64,000 nucleotides of DNA from Octopus vulgaris. Taxonomy: Eukaryota. Positions 1,445 to 59,375 of the stretch are shown here, piece by piece. How positions within the stretch are numbered: position 1 is the stretch's first letter; each line of letters starts with the position of its first letter. Under the pieces are notes generated by a model. The model was given only the letters and a program-made list of their open reading frames with translations. It was not told the DNA's origin and made no database searches. The translations under genes were made by a program, and so were the position numbers. The stretch covers positions 18,910,001-18,974,000 of the forward strand of contig OX597834.1 of NCBI GenBank assembly GCA_951406725.2. The letters are read 5' to 3'.

Positions 1445-1640
1445 TGGCACAAGGCCACCAAGTTCAGGGATTGGAGTTAGTCAATTACATCAACCCCAGT
1501 GCTCAACCAGTATTCATTTTATTGGCTCAGAAAGGATGAAAGGCAAAGCTGACCTCAGCAGAATTAGAACTCATAGCATAAAGACAGAAGAAATGCCACT
1601 CAGCACTTTGCTTGGTGTACTAATGATTCTGTCAGCTTGC
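1445..1640 (-). mobile_element. Family B SINE, old copy
   Basis: Reverse complement of the B core (gctttgcctttcatcctt...aatactgg...ctggggttgatg). Confidence 0.7.
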
Positions 1641-1650
1641 TGCCTTTTTC

Positions 1651-2020
1651 AGCTTGCTTACCAACCACATGGTTCCGGGTTCAGTTCCACTGCATTGCAC
1701 CTTGGGCAAGTGTCTTCTGCTATAGCCTCGGGCCGGATAAAGCCTTGTGTGTGGATTTGGTTGACGGAAACTGAAAGAAGCCGGTCGTATATATATGTGT
1801 GTGTGTGTGTGCACGTTTGCCCCCCCCCCCCCAACATCACCTGACAACTGATGCTGGTGTGTTTACGTCCCCATAACTTAGCAGTTCAGCAAAGGAGACC
1901 GATAGAATAAGTACTAGGTTACCATAGAATAAGTCCTGGGGTTGATTTGTTCGACTAAAGGCAGTGCTCCAGCATGGCCACAGTCAAATGACTGAAACAA
2001 GTAAAAGAATGAAAGTAAAG
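1651..2020 (+). mobile_element. Family A tRNA-derived SINE (head slightly truncated)
   Basis: B-box ggttcagttcc, ttgggcaagtgtcttc core, internal TA/TG microsatellite, tail gctccagcatggcc-cagtcaaatgactgaaacaagtaaaag. Confidence 0.9.
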
Positions 2021-3535: not shown

Positions 3536-3933
3536 GGGTGGTGAGCTGGCAGAAACGTTAGCATGCCGAGCGAAATGTTTAGTGGTATTTCATCTTCCAT
3601 TACGTTCTGAGTTCAAATTCCGCTGAGGTCGATAAATTAAGCACCAGTTACACACTGGTGTCGATATAATCAACTTAATCTCTTTGTCTGTCCTTGTTTG
3701 TCCCTTCTGTGTTTAGCCCCTTGTGTGTAGTAAAGAAATAGGTATTTCGTCTGTCATTATGCTCTGAGTTCAAATTCTGCCGAGGTCAACTTTGCCTTTC
3801 ATCCTTTCAGGGGGTCGATAAATTAAGTACCAGTTATGCACTGGGGTCGATGTAATTGACTTAATCCCTTTGTCTGTCCTTGTTTGTCCCCTCTATGTTT
3901 AGCCCCTTGTGGGCAATAAAAAAAAAAAAAATA
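3536..3933 (+). mobile_element. Family B SINE, head plus tandem second unit
   Basis: gagctggcagaaacgttagc head, gagttcaaattcc B-box, two copies of the body; flanked by direct repeat aatggtattgcag. Confidence 0.9.
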
Positions 3934-4349
3934 AGAATGGTATTGCAGAGGGTTTGTATTTATATGAAGTATAACTTCTTGTGAGTGTTATGAAAAAGTT
4001 TGTTGGTAAGTGGGGGAGAAAAAAGACTGGCTGTTGGTACTGGCAATTCGAGCAGTTACCCCATGTGTCATATGCTTTGGGGTGTTCTGTCAGTTGTTTT
4101 AGATCTTTGAAATAAAAAATAAAATAAAAAGAAACAAATACTTTATTCTTATATTTTGATAAATTGTGATAAATACTTTATTCCAACATTTACAGGGTTT
4201 TATACCTTATGAAAATTTAAAAAACATTTATCAAAATATTGATACCCAGCTTGTTAAGGGTACAAAAAATTCAGTCTTTCTGAGTGCTAGCAACCCTAGG
4301 GGCCAGCCCTGGTTGGGAAAACAGTATTATAAGTTCTGTTTTTTTTTTC

Positions 4350-8798: not shown

Positions 8799-8856
<58 letters not shown>

Positions 8857-8857
8857 C
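8788..8857. repeat. (TTA)n microsatellite
   Basis: Directly visible. Confidence 0.95.
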
Positions 8858-8969
8858 ATAACTATAGTGCCGCCATAGAAATATCGCAGTCAGTTATTAT
8901 AACGTTATCAAACAAGGATATCAAGCATGTTATTTACTTTAAAAGGTCACCATTGTCAACTGGTTAGTG

Positions 8970-8981
8970 TGCACATGTGCA

Positions 8982-9020
<39 letters not shown>

Positions 9021-9123
9021 GGGAGAGATAGAGCAAATATATGCACATGCCTATAAACTTACTCATATTGTGAGAAGAAAAGAGATACATGTGTGTGTGA
9101 ATGTGTGTGTATGAGACTGAACA

Positions 9124-32329: not shown

Positions 32330-32572
32330 CCCATGCTGATGCCATGCACAAAGCACCAGTTCTGATGCCACATATAAAAGCACTGGAGCCACGTAAAAAA
32401 GCACCCAGCAGACTTTTAAAAGTAGTTGACATTAGGAAGGGCGCCCAGCCATAGAAAGCAGGCCAAAATAAGCAACTGGAACCTGGTGCGCACCTCCCAG
32501 GCTTCCCAGCTCCTGTCAAACTGTTCAAACCATGCCAGCATGGAAAGCAGATATCGAATGATGATGATGATA
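32330..32572 (+). mobile_element. Family C, diverged
   Basis: taggaagggcgcccagcc...catggaaagcag...(gat)n. Confidence 0.8.
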
Positions 32573-33727: not shown

Positions 33728-33999
33728 CTTCAAAAATACAGAGCAAGGGGACAATTTGTTGACAAAGAAATGACAAAGAAAGAATAATGTCCATAGATTA
33801 GTGATATTTTTTCAGTGCAGAATGTGCACATTCATATGCATCTGTACACACAAACAATCCCTCCCTTCTTCCCCCCACACACACACATGCACACATACAC
33901 ACATAAGCACATAAGACATGCTTTGTACATTTTCTTTCTACAAAATTTACTGAGAAAGTATTGGTCAGCTCAGGGCCTTGCAGTGGGATGAATCTATGA

Positions 34000-34320
34000 C
34001 AGAATTACGGAGATGTACTTGTATAGCAAGTGATTTGATCTGAGATCGTGTGCTGGAACAAAAACAATTGCAGCGTGGAAGGTGTTTGTAAGCCATTTAA
34101 GAAATACACAAAAGCTGTTCGATTCACTTCAACATTTAAGTTTATTTTGTCAAAATATTTTCGTCGCTATAAGACCGCGACCTGTTCACTGACAAAAATC
34201 CGAGATGCAGCACGGAATTTTGTCAGTGAACAGGTCACGGTCTTATAGCGATGAAAATATTTCGGCAAAATAAACTTAAATCTTGAAGTGAATCGAACGA
34301 CTTTTGTGTGTTTCTTGAAT
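34000..34320. mobile_element. Fold-back (Penelope-like) insertion with 108-bp inverted arms and hammerhead-like motif
   Basis: 34095-34202 is inverted at 34213-34320; flanked by direct repeat gaatctatga. Confidence 0.7.
34145..34197 (-). ncRNA. Minimal type I hammerhead ribozyme-like motif, G3:C8 variant
   Basis: UUUUGUCA GUGAACA G GUCGC-9nt-GCGAC GAAA AUAUUU UGACAAAA. Confidence 0.5.
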
Positions 34321-35441
34321 CTATGATACATGGCTGCAAAACAAACTTCTTAAATACCCAACCCTACATATGTTTCAATAATATATTCTAAAAAGAAACA
34401 TGCCTTAAAATTGTTTTAAAACAAAGATGACCACATACAATGCACTTCGCTACCAAAGAATACACATTTACTTGTATGGTACACTAAAAACATGGCTGTT
34501 TTCTAAATATCCTGGTATTTCTCATCTCACTCAAAAGCTTCTGGTACATCTGTGAACCATAAATATAATGTATGCCATGGTGCAGCAATTGAAAATGTCT
34601 GCCTTGATGGCTTAATCCTTCTGTTTTAGCAGTTTTATCTTTGCTTGTCTTGTATGCTTGCTTGGATTCTCTGGTTCAGCAAAAGAGATTAATAGAATAA
34701 GTACCAGGCTTTCAAAAGAAAAAAGTATTTCTGGGGCTCATCTATTCGACAAAAAATTCCTCAAGACAGTGCCCTAGTATGGCCACAGACTGAAAAAAAA
34801 AAGATAAAGATAACAAATAGTGTTTGTAAAGGTTTGAGCCTAGCCCCTTAACCACTTGATCACTTCACCTCTTTCCAGATATTATTTACAGCCATGGTTG
34901 TATCTTGTTTGTAATGTCTAGTGTTGATGGTTTATATTTCTGAAATCAGAAGTTGTGGACATCTATTTTGGTAGTTTACCCCTTTGTAGGGTTCATGAAT
35001 AATATATTAGCCAGTCAGATTCTAATATAAACTTAGAATAAACTCCCCTCTTTGTTGCAGAAAAAACAAAAAAAAAGAAAGTTTTCTGCATAAATAAAAC
35101 AAACAAATATAAACCTTTACATTTCAAATGCAGCATTTATTTTTAAGTGTGAAATGGCTATTAACTTTATACAAGATGGTTAGCTTCTGATTAAAAATAG
35201 ATTTCTTAACCCATGGGAAATGAATTCATTAATGTCAGTGTAACTATTGATTCCTAGATCTTTGGCCTCTGTTTCTATTTCTCTCTTTCTGTTCCTTTGT
35301 CTTTGTTTATTTCTGTCTGTTGCCTGTTTCTTGTAGAAATATACATTTATAGCACTTATAGCTGTCTGTCTATTTATTCATACTGAAGAATATCTACACC
35401 TATAGACATGTTTACTCACAGGTATATATATATATATATAT

Positions 35442-35699: not shown

Positions 35700-36040
35700 A
35701 TCATCATCAACGTTTAACATTCGTTTTCCGTGCTAGCATGCGTTGGACAGTTTGACCAGGATCTGGGAAGCCAGGAGGCTGCACCAGGCTCCAGTCTGAT
35801 CAGGCAGTGTTTCTACAGCTGGATGCTCTTCCTAGCACCAACCACTCCAAGAGTGTAGTGGCTGTTTTTATGTGCCACCGGCATGGGTGCCATTGACCTG
35901 ACATTGGCCACGACTGTGGTCTCACTTGGTTGACAGGTCTACACAGCATGGTATAACACAGCATGGTATATCCCCAAAGGTCTTGGTTACCTGTCACTGC
36001 CTCCATAAGGCCCAATGCTCAAATGGTGCTTTTTACATGG
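35698..36040 (-). mobile_element. Family C copy including upstream unit
   Basis: (cat)n, C 3' end, then sequence related to the units at 13245-13750. Confidence 0.8.
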
Positions 36041-37630: not shown

Positions 37631-37852
37631 TATAATGTTTGATGTATAACATAAGGTTCTTACATTAAAATTATGATGAGAGGACTTAAAAAGCATTTTA
37701 AAACAAGAACCAGAGGCAGTAACAGGTGGGTTGGTATCATAAGGGTTAACTTACACTCATGGTGAGGAGAAATAAATTACCCATTGGCTTAATTATCAAA
37801 TTCAGGGAACCAATCCTGAAATCTAATTAAATTAAATTAAAAGTTCAATGTA

Positions 37853-38262
37853 GGCACGGAGTGGCTGTGTGGTAAGTAGCTTGCTAACCAACCACATGGT
37901 TCCGGGTTCAGTCCCACTGCGTGGCATCTTGGGCAAGTGTCTTCTGCTATAGCCTCGGGCCGACCAAAGCCTTGTGAGTGGATTTGGTAGACAGAAACTG
38001 AAAGAAGCCTGTCGTATATATGTATATATATATGTATATAGGTGTGTGTGTGTGTTTGTGTGTCTGTGTTTGTCCCCCCAACATCACTTGACAACCGATG
38101 CTGGTATGTTTACGTCCCCGTTACTTAGCGGTTCAGCAAAAAAGACCATTAGAATAAGTACTAGGCTTACAAAGAATAAGTCTCGGGGTCAATTTGCTCG
38201 ACTAAAAATGGTGGTGCCCCAGCATGGCCGCAGTCAAATGACTGAAACAAGTAAAAGAGAGT
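37853..38262 (+). mobile_element. Family A SINE, full length (reference copy)
   Basis: A-box tggctgtgtgg, B-box ggttcagtccc, CORE-like ttgggcaagt, microsatellite, LINE-like tail. Confidence 0.93.
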
Positions 38263-38846: not shown

Positions 38847-39157
38847 TTAACTGTTTGTCTTTTATGCTGAAGGCTACCTGAGTTATTTCTCTCCAGTCGT
38901 TCTTTCCATGTGGTAAAAAAAAAAGGGGGTGGGGGCAGGAGACTGCTAAATAAATGTATTTCTTTTTGGTTTGTTTAAAGAGATGTTAAGTGAAAGACAC
39001 AAAGAAGGAAAAAGACAAGCATTGAATGAGAGATGTGTGGGAGATAGATGCACTACATAAAAAAAAAAGTGAATGAGAGATACTTGAAAAAGAGACAAGA
39101 AAAGAAGGTGCAAGAAACATAAAAAAATGAAATACAAAGGATAAAGAGACATGTGAA

Positions 39158-39322
39158 AGAGTGGCTGTGTGGTAAGTAGCTTGTTTACCAGCCACATGGT
39201 TCTGGGTTCAGTCCCACTGTGTGGCACCTTGGGCTAGTGTCTTCTACTATAGCCTCGGGCCGACCAAAGCCTTGTGAGTGGATTTTGTAGGCCGAAACTG
39301 AAAGAAGCCCGTCGTATATAGG

Positions 39323-39353
<31 letters not shown>

Positions 39354-39541
39354 TTGTGTGTCTGTGTTTGTCCCCCTAGCATTGCTTGACAACTGATGCT
39401 GGTGTGTTTATGTCCCCGTTACTTAGCGGTTCGGCAAAAGAGACCGATAGAATAAGTCCCGGGGTCGAGTTGCTCGATTAAAGGCGGTGCTCCAGCATGG
39501 CCGCTGTCAAATGACTGAAACAAGTAAAAGAGTAAAAGAGT
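39158..39541 (+). mobile_element. Family A SINE
   Basis: Near-identical to 46768-47179. Confidence 0.93.
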
Positions 39542-46757: not shown

Positions 46758-46767
46758 CAGCTCTTTA

Positions 46768-47179
46768 GGCACAGGAGTGGCTGTGTGGTAAGTAGCTTGC
46801 TAACCAACCACATGGTTCTGGGTTCAGCCCCACTGCATGGCATCTTGGGCAAGTGTCTTCAGCTATAACCCTGGGCCGACCAATGCTTTGTGAGTGGATT
46901 TAGTAGACAGAAACTGAAAGAAGCCTGTCATATATATGTATATATATATGTATGCATGTGTGTGTTTGTGTGTCTGTGTTTGTCCCCCTAGCATTGCTTG
47001 ACAACCGATGCTGGTGTGTTTATTTCCCCGTCACTTAGCGGTTCGGCAAAAGAGACCGATAGAATAAGTACTGGGCTTCCAAAGAATAAGTCCCAGGGTT
47101 GATTTGCTCGACTAAAGGCGGTGCTCCAGCATGGCCGCAGTCAAATGACTGAAACAAGTAAAAGAGTAGAGTAAAGAGA
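46768..47179 (+). mobile_element. Family A SINE, full length
   Basis: Matches reference copy. Confidence 0.93.
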
Positions 47180-48939: not shown

Positions 48940-49296
48940 GGTGCAGGAATGGAGTGGCTGTGTGGTAAGTAGCTTGCTTACCAACCACATGTTTCCGGGT
49001 TCAGTCCCACTGCATGGTACCTTGGGCAAGTGTCTCCTACTATAGCCTTGGGCTGACCAAAGCCTTGTGAGTGGATTTGGTAGACGGAAACTGAAAGAAG
49101 CCCATCGTATATATGTATATATATATGTATGTGTGTGTGTGTTTGTCTCCCCAACATCGCTGTGGTGTGTTTATGTCCCTGTAACTTAGCGGTTCAGCAA
49201 AAGAGACCGATAGAATAAGTCCTGGGGTCGATTTGCTCGACTAAAGGCAGTGCTCCAGCATGGCTGCAGTCAAATGACTGAAACAAGTAAAAGAGT
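48940..49296 (+). mobile_element. Family A SINE
   Basis: Matches reference copy. Confidence 0.92.
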
Positions 49297-57048: not shown

Positions 57049-57296
57049 CAATAATAAATCTCGGAACGAGGTATAGACAGTAACTGCACAACAATGTGAG
57101 GTATATTTGCCATCTCAATATGGCTAACCACTAAGAGTGGGTTTTACTGTAGCATGTAGCCCCAGGAGAACATCTCCTCCAGCTGGTTATAGGCACACTT
57201 TCTGTGCCCTATCGGTATTTGCAAAGGGAGGTCATCCTTCCCTCGTCAACCTAAGTGATATATATAGCCATACTTGTGCCTATATATATATATATA

Positions 57297-57985
57297 GGCA
57301 CAAGTATGGCTGTGTGGTAAGAAGCTTGCTTCCCAACCACATGGTTTTGGATTCAGTCCCACTGCATGACATATTGAGCAAGTGTCTTCTACTATAGCCT
57401 TGGGCCAGCGAAAGCCTTGTGAACAGACTTGGTAGATGAAAACTGAAAGAAGCCTGTCATGTAAATAGGAGTATATGTAGATATATTTATGTGAGTGTGT
57501 GTCTGTATGTGTCCCTCTACCATCACTTGACAACTGATGGTGGTGTACTTATTCTTTCAGTCTCTTTTGCTGAAACGCTAAGCTTGTTTTTGTCTAAGGG
57601 TGGGTAGACAAAAACATACACATATAGATAATACATATATGTGTGTGTGTATATATATATATAAATATATATATATGTTTAAGATGTGTTTCTTTTAGTC
57701 TCTGTCTACCAAATCCACTCAGAAGGCTTTGGTTAGCCTGAGGCTATAATATTAGGTTGTCCCAAAAGTTTGTAAACACTTGCGAAAATTGAATTTTTAC
57801 TCGCCAAGTACTAACAAAAACAACAAAAATCATTCCTCAAAATAAAGACTATTATTTTCCAAGACTTTCTACGAACTTTTGGGACAACCTTATAGAAGAC
57901 ACTAGCTCAACGTGCCATGCAGTGGGACTGAACCATGAATGATGTGGTTGGGATGCAAGCTTCTTTACCATACAGTGGCTCCTGC
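57297..57985. mobile_element. Inverted pair of family A SINEs (+ 57297-57545; - 57546-57985)
   Basis: Sense head and core joined to antisense core and head. Confidence 0.85.
57752..57892. mobile_element. mariner-type MITE nested in SINE A
   Basis: TA-ttaggttgtcccaaaagtt ... aacttttgggacaacctta-TA; splits gaggctata/gaagacac. Confidence 0.88.
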
Positions 57986-58345: not shown

Positions 58346-59000
58346 ATTCTGAATGATTTTTCATGTTTGTATGTGTCTATGTTGATTTCTACATAACATA
58401 CTCTCCGGCATGTTTGCATAAATATATTCCTTTTCTCTGTAGAAATCATTAGTGACTGAAGAACTCATTCTATTAAATTAAATTCATTGATAGATAACTT
58501 GGAACTGAAAGGCAAATATATGTTTATATCTAAACAGAATCTGGGTGCAAATATGAAGCATACAAACCAAGGTAGAACGTAAATGCATTGTGGTCGCTCG
58601 TTTTTTTCAAATCTTTTTCACATCATCTTTATTAAATACAACTTACATCATACACATACATGCATATTATAGTTTTGCGCAGACATGTGAGTGATTGTAT
58701 GTGTATTAGATAGCATATATGAAAACATGTGCACAGTGCCTGTTTCCACATCTAGTTCTTTGCATATATGTATATATATATACACAGCACTTGATATGAA
58801 AACGTACATTTACTAAATGTATACACATGTACACAAACAAAATAAAAAACATAAGCACATACAAAGATTATACATACACTTAGTAAATATGTTTTTATAG
58901 TTAGTGCTGTATATATACCTATATAAATTTCAATGTCTATGCATTTTCTTTATAACTATACATTCTTTTCTATGTGTGTTAACAGGTTATATATTTATAT

Positions 59001-59150
59001 AGGTGCAGGCACATCAAGAAGCTTACTTCCTAACTGCATGGTTCTGGGTTCAGTCCCACTGTGTGGCACCTTGAGCAAGTGGTTTTTACTCTGGTCTTGA
59101 GCCAACCAAAACCTTATGAGTAGATTTGGCAGATGGAACCTGAAAGAAGC

Positions 59151-59160
<10 letters not shown>
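59001..59160 (+). mobile_element. Family A SINE 5' half (tail remnant at ~60000-60080)
   Basis: Head and core up to the TA tract. Confidence 0.8.
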
Positions 59161-59194
<34 letters not shown>

Positions 59195-59375
59195 CTGTAT
59201 TTTAATGTGTACAATGAACACTCGTGTATAAGGAACCCCCTAATTTTGTGGGCTTAAAATTTAGAAAAAAAGTTTTTGTAAGAGATTATAATACTATCAA
59301 TGTATAAGAAACTCCTATATTTTTTTAAATCTAACTTTTGACAAAAAAGGGTCTCTTATACATGTTAAAATGCAG
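59195..59375. mobile_element. Tc1/mariner-superfamily MITE (Tc2/pogo-like TIR)
   Basis: TA-ctgtattttaatgtgta ... tacatgttaaaatgcag-TA. Confidence 0.7.

What the first reader, a model, noticed from the sequence alone, without database searches (positions are those of the whole stretch)
33990..34328. Fold-back insertion encoding a hammerhead ribozyme with a swapped G3:C8 core pair
Seen: 108-bp arms (about 10 mismatches), a 10-nt loop and a 10-bp flanking direct repeat. Each arm reads stem I (8 bp in the left arm) - GUGAACA - stem II GUCGC/GCGAC - GAAA - palindromic AAUAUU - stem I'. Known: the hammerhead core is CUGANGA with a C3:G8 Watson-Crick pair, and Penelope-like elements carry minimal dimer-type hammerheads and inverted termini. 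Inference: a natural compensatory G3:C8 variant that CUGANGA-based searches would miss, present on both strands, within a long dsRNA that could mask it or be edited.
Basis: partly seen in the sequence, partly recalled or inferred. Interest (0 to 1): 0.8.

Follow-up and report, generated by a model that had tools for sequence, protein, structure and literature searches.

The report
Penelope element's swapped-core hammerhead ribozyme
This fold-back is a short head-to-head insertion of an octopus Penelope-like jumping element, and its thousands of copies carry a hammerhead-ribozyme motif with two paired core letters swapped (G3:C8), likely a natural variant that standard search patterns miss, though cutting is untested.

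Summary
The fold-back is real (104-bp arms, 9 mismatches, 10-nt loop, 10-bp target duplication, 33990-34326). It is one copy of a large dispersed family: 7,079 exact matches to the core pattern in the genome. I found the parent. The ~210-nt unit is the hammerhead part of the pseudo-LTR plus the first ~32 codons of a Penelope-like element with reverse transcriptase and C-terminal GIY-YIG endonuclease. An inverted, tail-less partner arm is routine (21 of 30 position-ordered copies). G3:C8 is the family state (95 of the first 100 listed). The sister family and five metagenomic relatives carry the motif at the same place with C3:G8 (five families) or U3:A8 (one), so position 3:8 covaries and G3:C8 is probably derived. 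Cleavage is untested. My literature searches found natural U3:A8 and engineered G3:C8 only, but two key papers were not available. This scan noted G3:C8 swaps before in phage and protist DNA. Verdict: new variant of a known kind.

The parts
33990..33999 (.). Left target-site duplication (10 bp)
   Evidence: family duplications of 8-17 bp in 22 of 60 loci, the rest in simple repeats or not found
34000..34202 (-). Direct, tail-bearing fragment of the Penelope-like element (unit positions 12-214)
   Evidence: 96-98% identical to best genomic copies; continues into the ORF in L185, L193, L205
34146..34196 (-). Intact minimal type I hammerhead motif with G3:C8: stem I 34196-34190 / 34152-34146, core 34189-34183, bulged G 34182, stem II 34181-34177 / 34167-34163, GAAA 34162-34159, palindrome 34159-34154; predicted cut between 34153 and 34152
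   Evidence: homologous motifs in related families
34000..34096 (-). ATG (34096-34094) and first 32 codons of the element's RT/GIY-YIG ORF
   Evidence: the same codons open the ~1,070-codon ORF in L185 and L193
34000..34063 (-). Penelope 'tail': the ~60 nt between the family's two preferred 3' ends (unit ~150 and ~205-214)
   Evidence: tail concept from PMC11167929 and PMC8557442
34203..34316 (+). Inverted, tail-less second fragment (unit positions 2-115); the 10-nt loop 34203-34212 is the element's short-copy 5' end
34219..34269 (+). Decayed second copy of the hammerhead motif: core letters intact, stems I and II damaged
34317..34326 (.). Right target-site duplication (10 bp)

Best explanation
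The insert is a short head-to-head insertion of an endonuclease-bearing Penelope-like retroelement, and the motif in it is that family's pseudo-LTR hammerhead with a G3:C8 core pair, which is predicted to cut weakly as a dimer or with help from the element's protein. Shown: the unit is pseudo-LTR plus ORF start, G3:C8 is the family state, relatives have C3:G8 or U3:A8 at the same place, and one arm keeps the tail while the other lacks it. Inferred: an RNA starting about 23 nt upstream of the core was copied from both nicked target strands. One cDNA began ~95 nt into the ORF and the other further upstream; both ran to near the RNA's 5' end and were joined head to head, leaving a 10-bp duplication. 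Uncut RNA appears to be the usual template. This genomic copy is likely dead cargo; any ribozyme function belongs to the parent element's RNA.
For: Parent L205 reads unit - ORF - 3'UTR - unit; L206 has the same inverted tail-less + direct layout at kilobase scale. The ORF has an RT YVDD motif, a CX3CxxC linker and GIY-YIG (Pfam E 1.4e-4, 22.5 bits against a cut-off of 22.6; RVT_1 only E 0.05), with open frames up to 1,025 aa. Of 30 position-ordered copies, 21 have an inverted arm, 18 of these start at unit 146-154, 17 of 30 are flanked by (TA)n, and 19 of 30 reach unit 2-19 at the 5' end. G3 in 111 of 114 and C8 in 107 of 113 aligned copies. The sister family (54% aa) has C3:G8 in 14 of 14 loci, with stem II GUCAC/GUGAC against GUCGC/GCGAC here; 5 of 31 metagenomic loci have the motif after the ORF, 4 with C3:G8 and 1 with U3:A8. 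A quick tree pairs this family with the sister, SH-aLRT 100. All five columns of the 51-nt motif that vary in more than 8% of copies lie in the 9-nt loop II. An engineered C3G/G8C double mutant partly restores cutting in a Penelope hammerhead, whose protein extends both strands from internal start sites (PMC11167929).
Against: No cleavage data. Among 23 of 30 loci classed as 5'-truncated near the motif, 4 start at the predicted cut (unit 62) and 5 at unit 66: no peak. Copies are young, so conservation among them is weak evidence of selection, and the loop II changes are perhaps three events. Minimal hammerheads cut poorly in vitro even with the usual core (PMC4209133), the swap gives only partial rescue, and U17 is a less favoured cut-site letter (recalled). 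No intact full-length ORF copy was seen among the 30 loci. The tree is a quick search without bootstrap. The two-primer step and the transcription start are inferred from insertion shapes only.
Confidence: 0.75

Rival explanations
1. Same element and origin, but the G3:C8 motif is a catalytically silent hammerhead descendant, kept as a fold for protein binding or because it overlaps the internal promoter.
For: No pile-up of 5' ends at the cut site. Hammerhead mutants did not affect insertion in vitro, and no RNA reads ended at the cut site, in the anole element (PMC11167929). The sister family and one metagenomic relative already deviate at position 9, so this clade's core may be relaxed.
Against: Three different Watson-Crick pairs at 3:8 across seven related families, with no one-sided state in the motifs found (my descriptor required a pair, so this is partly built in). 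Reaching G3:C8 from C3:G8 needs two changes, and the 3:8 pair belongs to the active fold. U4, G5, A6, G12, A13, A14, A15.1 and U16.1 are kept.
Confidence: 0.25
2. The fold-back arose by snap-back of a single cDNA onto itself, or the short copies come from a spliced RNA, instead of two primed cDNAs from a capped RNA.
For: The same CCG|AGATG junction recurs in 5 of 16 short copies. Both arms here share one rare variant (unit 69, 2% in the family). The upstream sequence resembles a branch point and 3' splice site, and Penelope introns are known (PMC4209133).
Against: Snap-back alone cannot supply the tail that only one arm has. Inverted arms start at a fixed internal site next to the target duplication (18 of 21). 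No shared upstream exon beyond one G is seen in short copies (G in 12 of 16, against C in 33 of 36 long copies).
Confidence: 0.15
3. A domesticated double-stranded RNA at this locus that masks the ribozyme or serves as an editing substrate.
For: The whole insert folds at -158 to -166 kcal/mol and buries the motif.
Against: Such fold-backs are the majority state of the family (21 of 30). The arm differences are mostly G>A or C>T (7 of 13). I found no evidence that this copy is transcribed or conserved.
Confidence: 0.05
4. A DNA-transposon MITE or fold-back element whose arms are terminal inverted repeats, or a tandem retrozyme.
For: Long inverted arms and many short non-coding copies. One fragment lies inside a real MITE.
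Against: Arms vary in length and are absent in 9 of 30 copies, duplications vary from 8 to 17 bp, and the unit is contiguous with an RT ORF. Other copies of that MITE lack the fragment. No head-to-tail arrays were seen among the 60 short-copy loci.
Confidence: 0.02

Closest known systems
Minimal type I hammerheads of Penelope-like elements (Cervera and de la Pena 2014, PMC4209133)
   Same: Located in the pseudo-LTR; extra nucleotide between 9 and 10.1; G10.1:C11.1; palindromic 15.2-16.2; mostly dispersed single or opposite-strand pairs; natural 3:8 covariation known (U3-A8 in Schistosoma).
   Different: G3:C8, which the parts I read do not report and the 'cuganga' descriptor excludes; 7-bp stem I; U17.
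Poseidon element of Anolis carolinensis (Frangieh et al. 2024, PMC11167929)
   Same: Hammerhead near the ORF start; two internal reverse-transcription starts bounding a tail; AT-rich targets; uncut RNA as template.
   Different: Natural C3:G8 there, with G3:C8 only as an engineered rescue. Tail here ~60 nt, against the 30-40 bp usually cited. The ORF starts 57 nt after the predicted cut here, inside stem II there.
Neptune/Nematis clades of endonuclease-positive Penelope-like elements (Craig et al. 2021, PMC8557442)
   Same: RT then CX2-5CxxC linker then C-terminal GIY-YIG; partial tandems; adjacent inverted truncated copy; tail at one end; (TA)n targets.
   Different: Clade not fixed by a tree with named members; motifs look closer to Nematis by eye. 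Not a Naiad, because the endonuclease is C-terminal.
Animal non-LTR retrozymes (PMC7229834; bioRxiv 10.64898/2026.07.22.740005)
   Same: Short non-coding hammerhead-bearing repeats linked to Penelope-like elements.
   Different: Retrozymes are head-to-tail tandem units; these are dispersed truncation products of an ORF-bearing element.

Membership tests
EN+ Penelope-like element (parent) | Single ORF with RT and C-terminal GIY-YIG | tested here: met
   Pfam scores are just under or below cut-off, motifs visible, 143 homologues
EN+ Penelope-like element (parent) | Pseudo-LTRs as partial tandem flanking the ORF | tested here: met
   L205: unit 3881-4061, ORF to ~7170, unit 8820-9026
EN+ Penelope-like element (parent) | Tail at one end and adjacent inverted truncated copy | tested here: met
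   21 of 30 with inverted arm, none of the 21 with the tail; L206
EN+ Penelope-like element (parent) | Phylogenetic placement among named clades | tested here: inconclusive
   tree without named references; linker fits Neptune/Nematis, by-eye likeness to Nematis
Minimal type I hammerhead | Core CUGANGA | tested here: not met
   GUGAACA in 85 of 90 motifs; C3:G8 in 0 of the first 100 listed
Minimal type I hammerhead | Watson-Crick pair between positions 3 and 8, other core letters kept | tested here: met
Minimal type I hammerhead | Stems I and II, bulge before G10.1:C11.1, palindromic stem III, NUH site | tested here: met
   left arm and family; not met for the right arm
Minimal type I hammerhead | Match to an Rfam hammerhead model | tested here: inconclusive
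   no match here, but none either for C3:G8 relatives
Minimal type I hammerhead | Site-specific self-cleavage | not testable with these tools
   indirect test on insertion 5' ends gave no peak
DNA-transposon MITE | Fixed terminal inverted repeats and fixed duplication length | tested here: not met
Non-LTR retrozyme | Head-to-tail tandem units with a hammerhead in each | tested here: not met
   none among 60 short-copy loci; L015 has two copies split by a (TA)n run

The most novel reading that the evidence does not exclude
A catalytically active natural G3:C8 hammerhead, reached by a compensated two-step swap and amplified to thousands of copies by a recently active animal retroelement. It would mean CUGANGA-based censuses miss whole families, some elements reported to lack hammerheads may have swapped cores, and one octopus genome offers C3:G8, U3:A8 and G3:C8 Penelope hammerheads for a direct test of how cutting rate is tuned.
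Probability: 0.45. Interest if true: 0.6.

Novelty: new variant of a known kind. Interest (0 to 1): 0.42.

Why it matters
The role of hammerheads in Penelope-like elements is an open question. This family gives a natural core swap with a close C3:G8 sister family in the same genome, so the swap can be polarised and assayed. It shows a concrete blind spot in the published search descriptor. The many copies also record two internal start sites and a one-sided tail in vivo, matching the only in vitro study of such an element. The locus itself is an ordinary dead insertion.

Tried and rejected
Rfam found no hammerhead here or in C3:G8 relatives: uninformative. A 5.2-kb tandem holding the unit (L031-L033) is a duplicated block with a 316-aa ORF that looks like a fucosyltransferase by recall, not the parent. 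The first GIY-YIG search returned a different family with 781-aa frames. The one unit fragment near it sits inside an unrelated MITE, so I dropped my brief idea of a Naiad-type parent. Sequencing runs: no RNA holder listed; the four runs laid were contigs of uncertain kind and say nothing on start, cut or strand. The test for 5' ends at the cut site was negative. Three of 30 copies near the site had suggested a peak. In one search, 7 of 30 loci were set aside as intact or indel copies, one more (L284) looks misclassed, and the other 70 listed rows were judged by eye only. Editing signature rejected. The careful tree did not finish. Luense et al. 2017 (PMC5785218) and Przybilski and Hammann 2007 (PMC1986816) were not held.

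Full report
Observation. The insert spans 34000-34316 between two copies of a 10-bp repeat (33990-33999, 34317-34326). The arms are 104 bp with 9 mismatches, or 108 bp with 10 if extended into the right repeat, around a 10-nt loop. This far exceeds chance: 300 bits against at most 42.8 in 50 shuffles. On the minus strand the left arm gives a complete minimal hammerhead layout with GUGAACA in place of CUGANGA (z -2.9). The right arm keeps the core letters but has lost pairs in both stems (z -0.4).

Family. A search of the own genome gave 2,340 first-look candidates, 40 scored, the best at 96-98% identity. A 25-mer from the 3' part has 1,647 exact matches and the core pattern 7,079; reversed controls gave 0. 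The repeated unit is about 210 nt. I took the first 30 matches as a sample chosen by position; it is selected for having the 3' part. In it, 21 of 30 have an inverted arm, 18 of those 21 start at unit 146-154, and none carries the last ~55 nt. All 30 direct copies end at 205-210, 19 of 30 reach unit 2-19 at the 5' end, and 17 of 30 adjoin (TA)n. Non-simple duplications of 8-17 bp were found in 22 of 60 loci. The window's fold-back is therefore the family's usual shape.

Parent. Seven of those 60 loci extend upstream into shared sequence. [quoted passage not shown] In L185 and L193 the ATG at unit 118 opens this ORF of about 1,070 codons. L205 reads unit - ORF - 3'UTR - unit. L206 has an inverted tail-less copy head to head with a direct copy, the window's layout at kilobase scale. 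ORF copies are 98-99% alike and open frames reach 1,025 aa, but I saw no copy intact from ATG to stop among the 30 loci. The last four bases of the window's direct arm match the parent's continuation with one CpG-type change. The best protein relative is named Octopus vulgaris by NCBI and matches G000 at 100%, so the host is very likely that octopus. Partial tandems, an adjacent inverted truncated copy, a one-sided tail and (TA)n targets are described for Penelope-like elements (PMC8557442: passages, part 2 of 10 and supplement passages seen).

The swap. G3:C8 is the family state: 95 of the first 100 listed matches, 5 one-sided changes, no C3:G8 (counted by eye); G3 111 of 114 and C8 107 of 113. 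It is present in 3 of 6 older or other copies shown, including L212 and L214, whose ORFs are 74-87% identical to L205; L209, L210 and L217 are damaged there. The sister family (54% amino-acid identity, frames to 1,312 aa) has the motif at the same place in 14 of 14 loci with C3:G8, a C at position 9, and stem II GUCAC/GUGAC, a double change against GUCGC/GCGAC. Of 31 metagenomic loci, 5 show the motif just after the ORF: 4 C3:G8 and 1 U3:A8, all with the bulged G, G10.1:C11.1 and a palindromic stem III. Many of the other contigs end soon after or within the ORF. A quick tree joins this family and the sister (SH-aLRT 100) with C3:G8 and U3:A8 families outside, so G3:C8 is probably derived. Within the 51-nt motif, the five columns that vary in more than 8% of copies all lie in loop II. 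That is perhaps three events, so the support for selection is modest.

Mechanism. Inferred from copy shapes and from the anole element, whose protein cuts and extends both strands, starts at two internal sites bounding the tail, and uses uncut RNA (PMC11167929, parts 1-2 of 4 read). Short copies begin at AGATG, 23 nt before the core. A G precedes it in 12 of 16 short copies, against C in 33 of 36 long ones. This fits a capped start, but most of those Gs could also come from the other arm. Two cDNAs primed on opposite target strands and joined at their ends explain the one-sided tail and the duplication. The one rare variant shared by both arms fits a common template lineage or later conversion.

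Against activity. If cut RNA were often copied, 5' ends should cluster at unit 62. They do not: of 23 truncated loci among 30, 4 start at 62 and 5 at 66. Minimal hammerheads cut poorly in vitro (PMC4209133, parts 1-2 of 4 and passages of supplement file 2). An RNA spanning the whole insert would bury the motif. Of 13 departures of the arms from the family's commonest letters, 7 are G>A or C>T and 2 are A>G or T>C, so there is no editing signature.

Novelty. Natural U3:A8 is published (PMC3088659, section 8 and passages; PMC4209133). G3:C8 appears as an engineered, partly active rescue (PMC11167929; passages of PMC8495972 and PMC3884650). Searches for 'G3C8', 'G3-C8' (26), 'C3G'+'G8C' (94), 'GUGANCA' (100), octopus + Penelope + hammerhead (87) and natural core covariation (101) listed no report of a natural G3:C8. 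Passages of PMC7229834, PMC6155905, PMC6765202, PMC6962438, PMC13725137 and PMC10085705 and part 1 of 5 of bioRxiv 10.64898/2026.07.22.740005 showed none either. Luense et al. 2017 and Przybilski and Hammann 2007 could not be read and are known to me only from reference lists and recall. This scan's earlier notes list G3:C8 motifs in protist Penelope-like elements (with an extra core base) and in phages; I did not test them.

Verdict. The feature is real, its origin is explained, and the core is a new variant of a known ribozyme whose activity is untested. By the strict CUGANGA definition it is not a canonical member, but it is homologous to, and built like, Penelope minimal hammerheads. Interest 0.42.

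Noticed in passing
L257:58-95 and L252-L265 (G000 sister family): A very young Penelope-like family with open frames to 1,312 aa whose hammerhead has C3:G8 but C at position 9 and a non-palindromic stem III; metagenomic L223 has U3:A8 with C9.
   Followed up: partly
L041, L043, L044, L047, L052, L058, L062, L066: GIY-YIG elements with many 781-aa open frames (RT + GIY-YIG by Pfam); several loci from the same search carry a U3:A8 minimal hammerhead downstream. With further C3:G8 and U3:A8 motifs in L045, L214 and L216, this genome holds three 3:8 pair types.
   Followed up: partly
L062:930-1385: A ~400-bp MITE-like family with terminal inverted repeats in (TA)n; this copy has ~58 bp replaced by a 116-bp 3' fragment of the studied unit.
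   Followed up: partly
L022, L024, L114, L126, L131, L132, upstream of the unit: The parent's long 3'UTR is rich in (TACA)n and ends in a branch-point-like and 3' splice-site-like stretch right before the short-copy start; a donor-like GTAAG lies a few hundred bases upstream. Intron or promoter unresolved.
   Followed up: partly
L290/L291 and G000:C8:45699278-45699326: Head-to-head junctions in which both arms start at unit 62/63, exactly the predicted cut site; stem I complementarity could also explain them.
   Followed up: no
L031-L033 (G000:C28:25044001-25070000): A 5.2-kb tandem duplication with a 316-aa ORF resembling a fucosyltransferase (recalled, not searched), carrying a copy of the unit in each repeat.
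   Followed up: no
window 1623-1881, 37850-38108, 39150-39408, 46766-47024, 48943-49201, 57295-57553, 58992-59250: Dispersed ~260-bp SINE-like repeat family followed by microsatellites; resembles octopus SINEs by recall.
   Followed up: no
window 32490-32571 and 35700-35782: Two inverted pieces of another repeat family on either side of the finding, 77-81% complementary.
   Followed up: no
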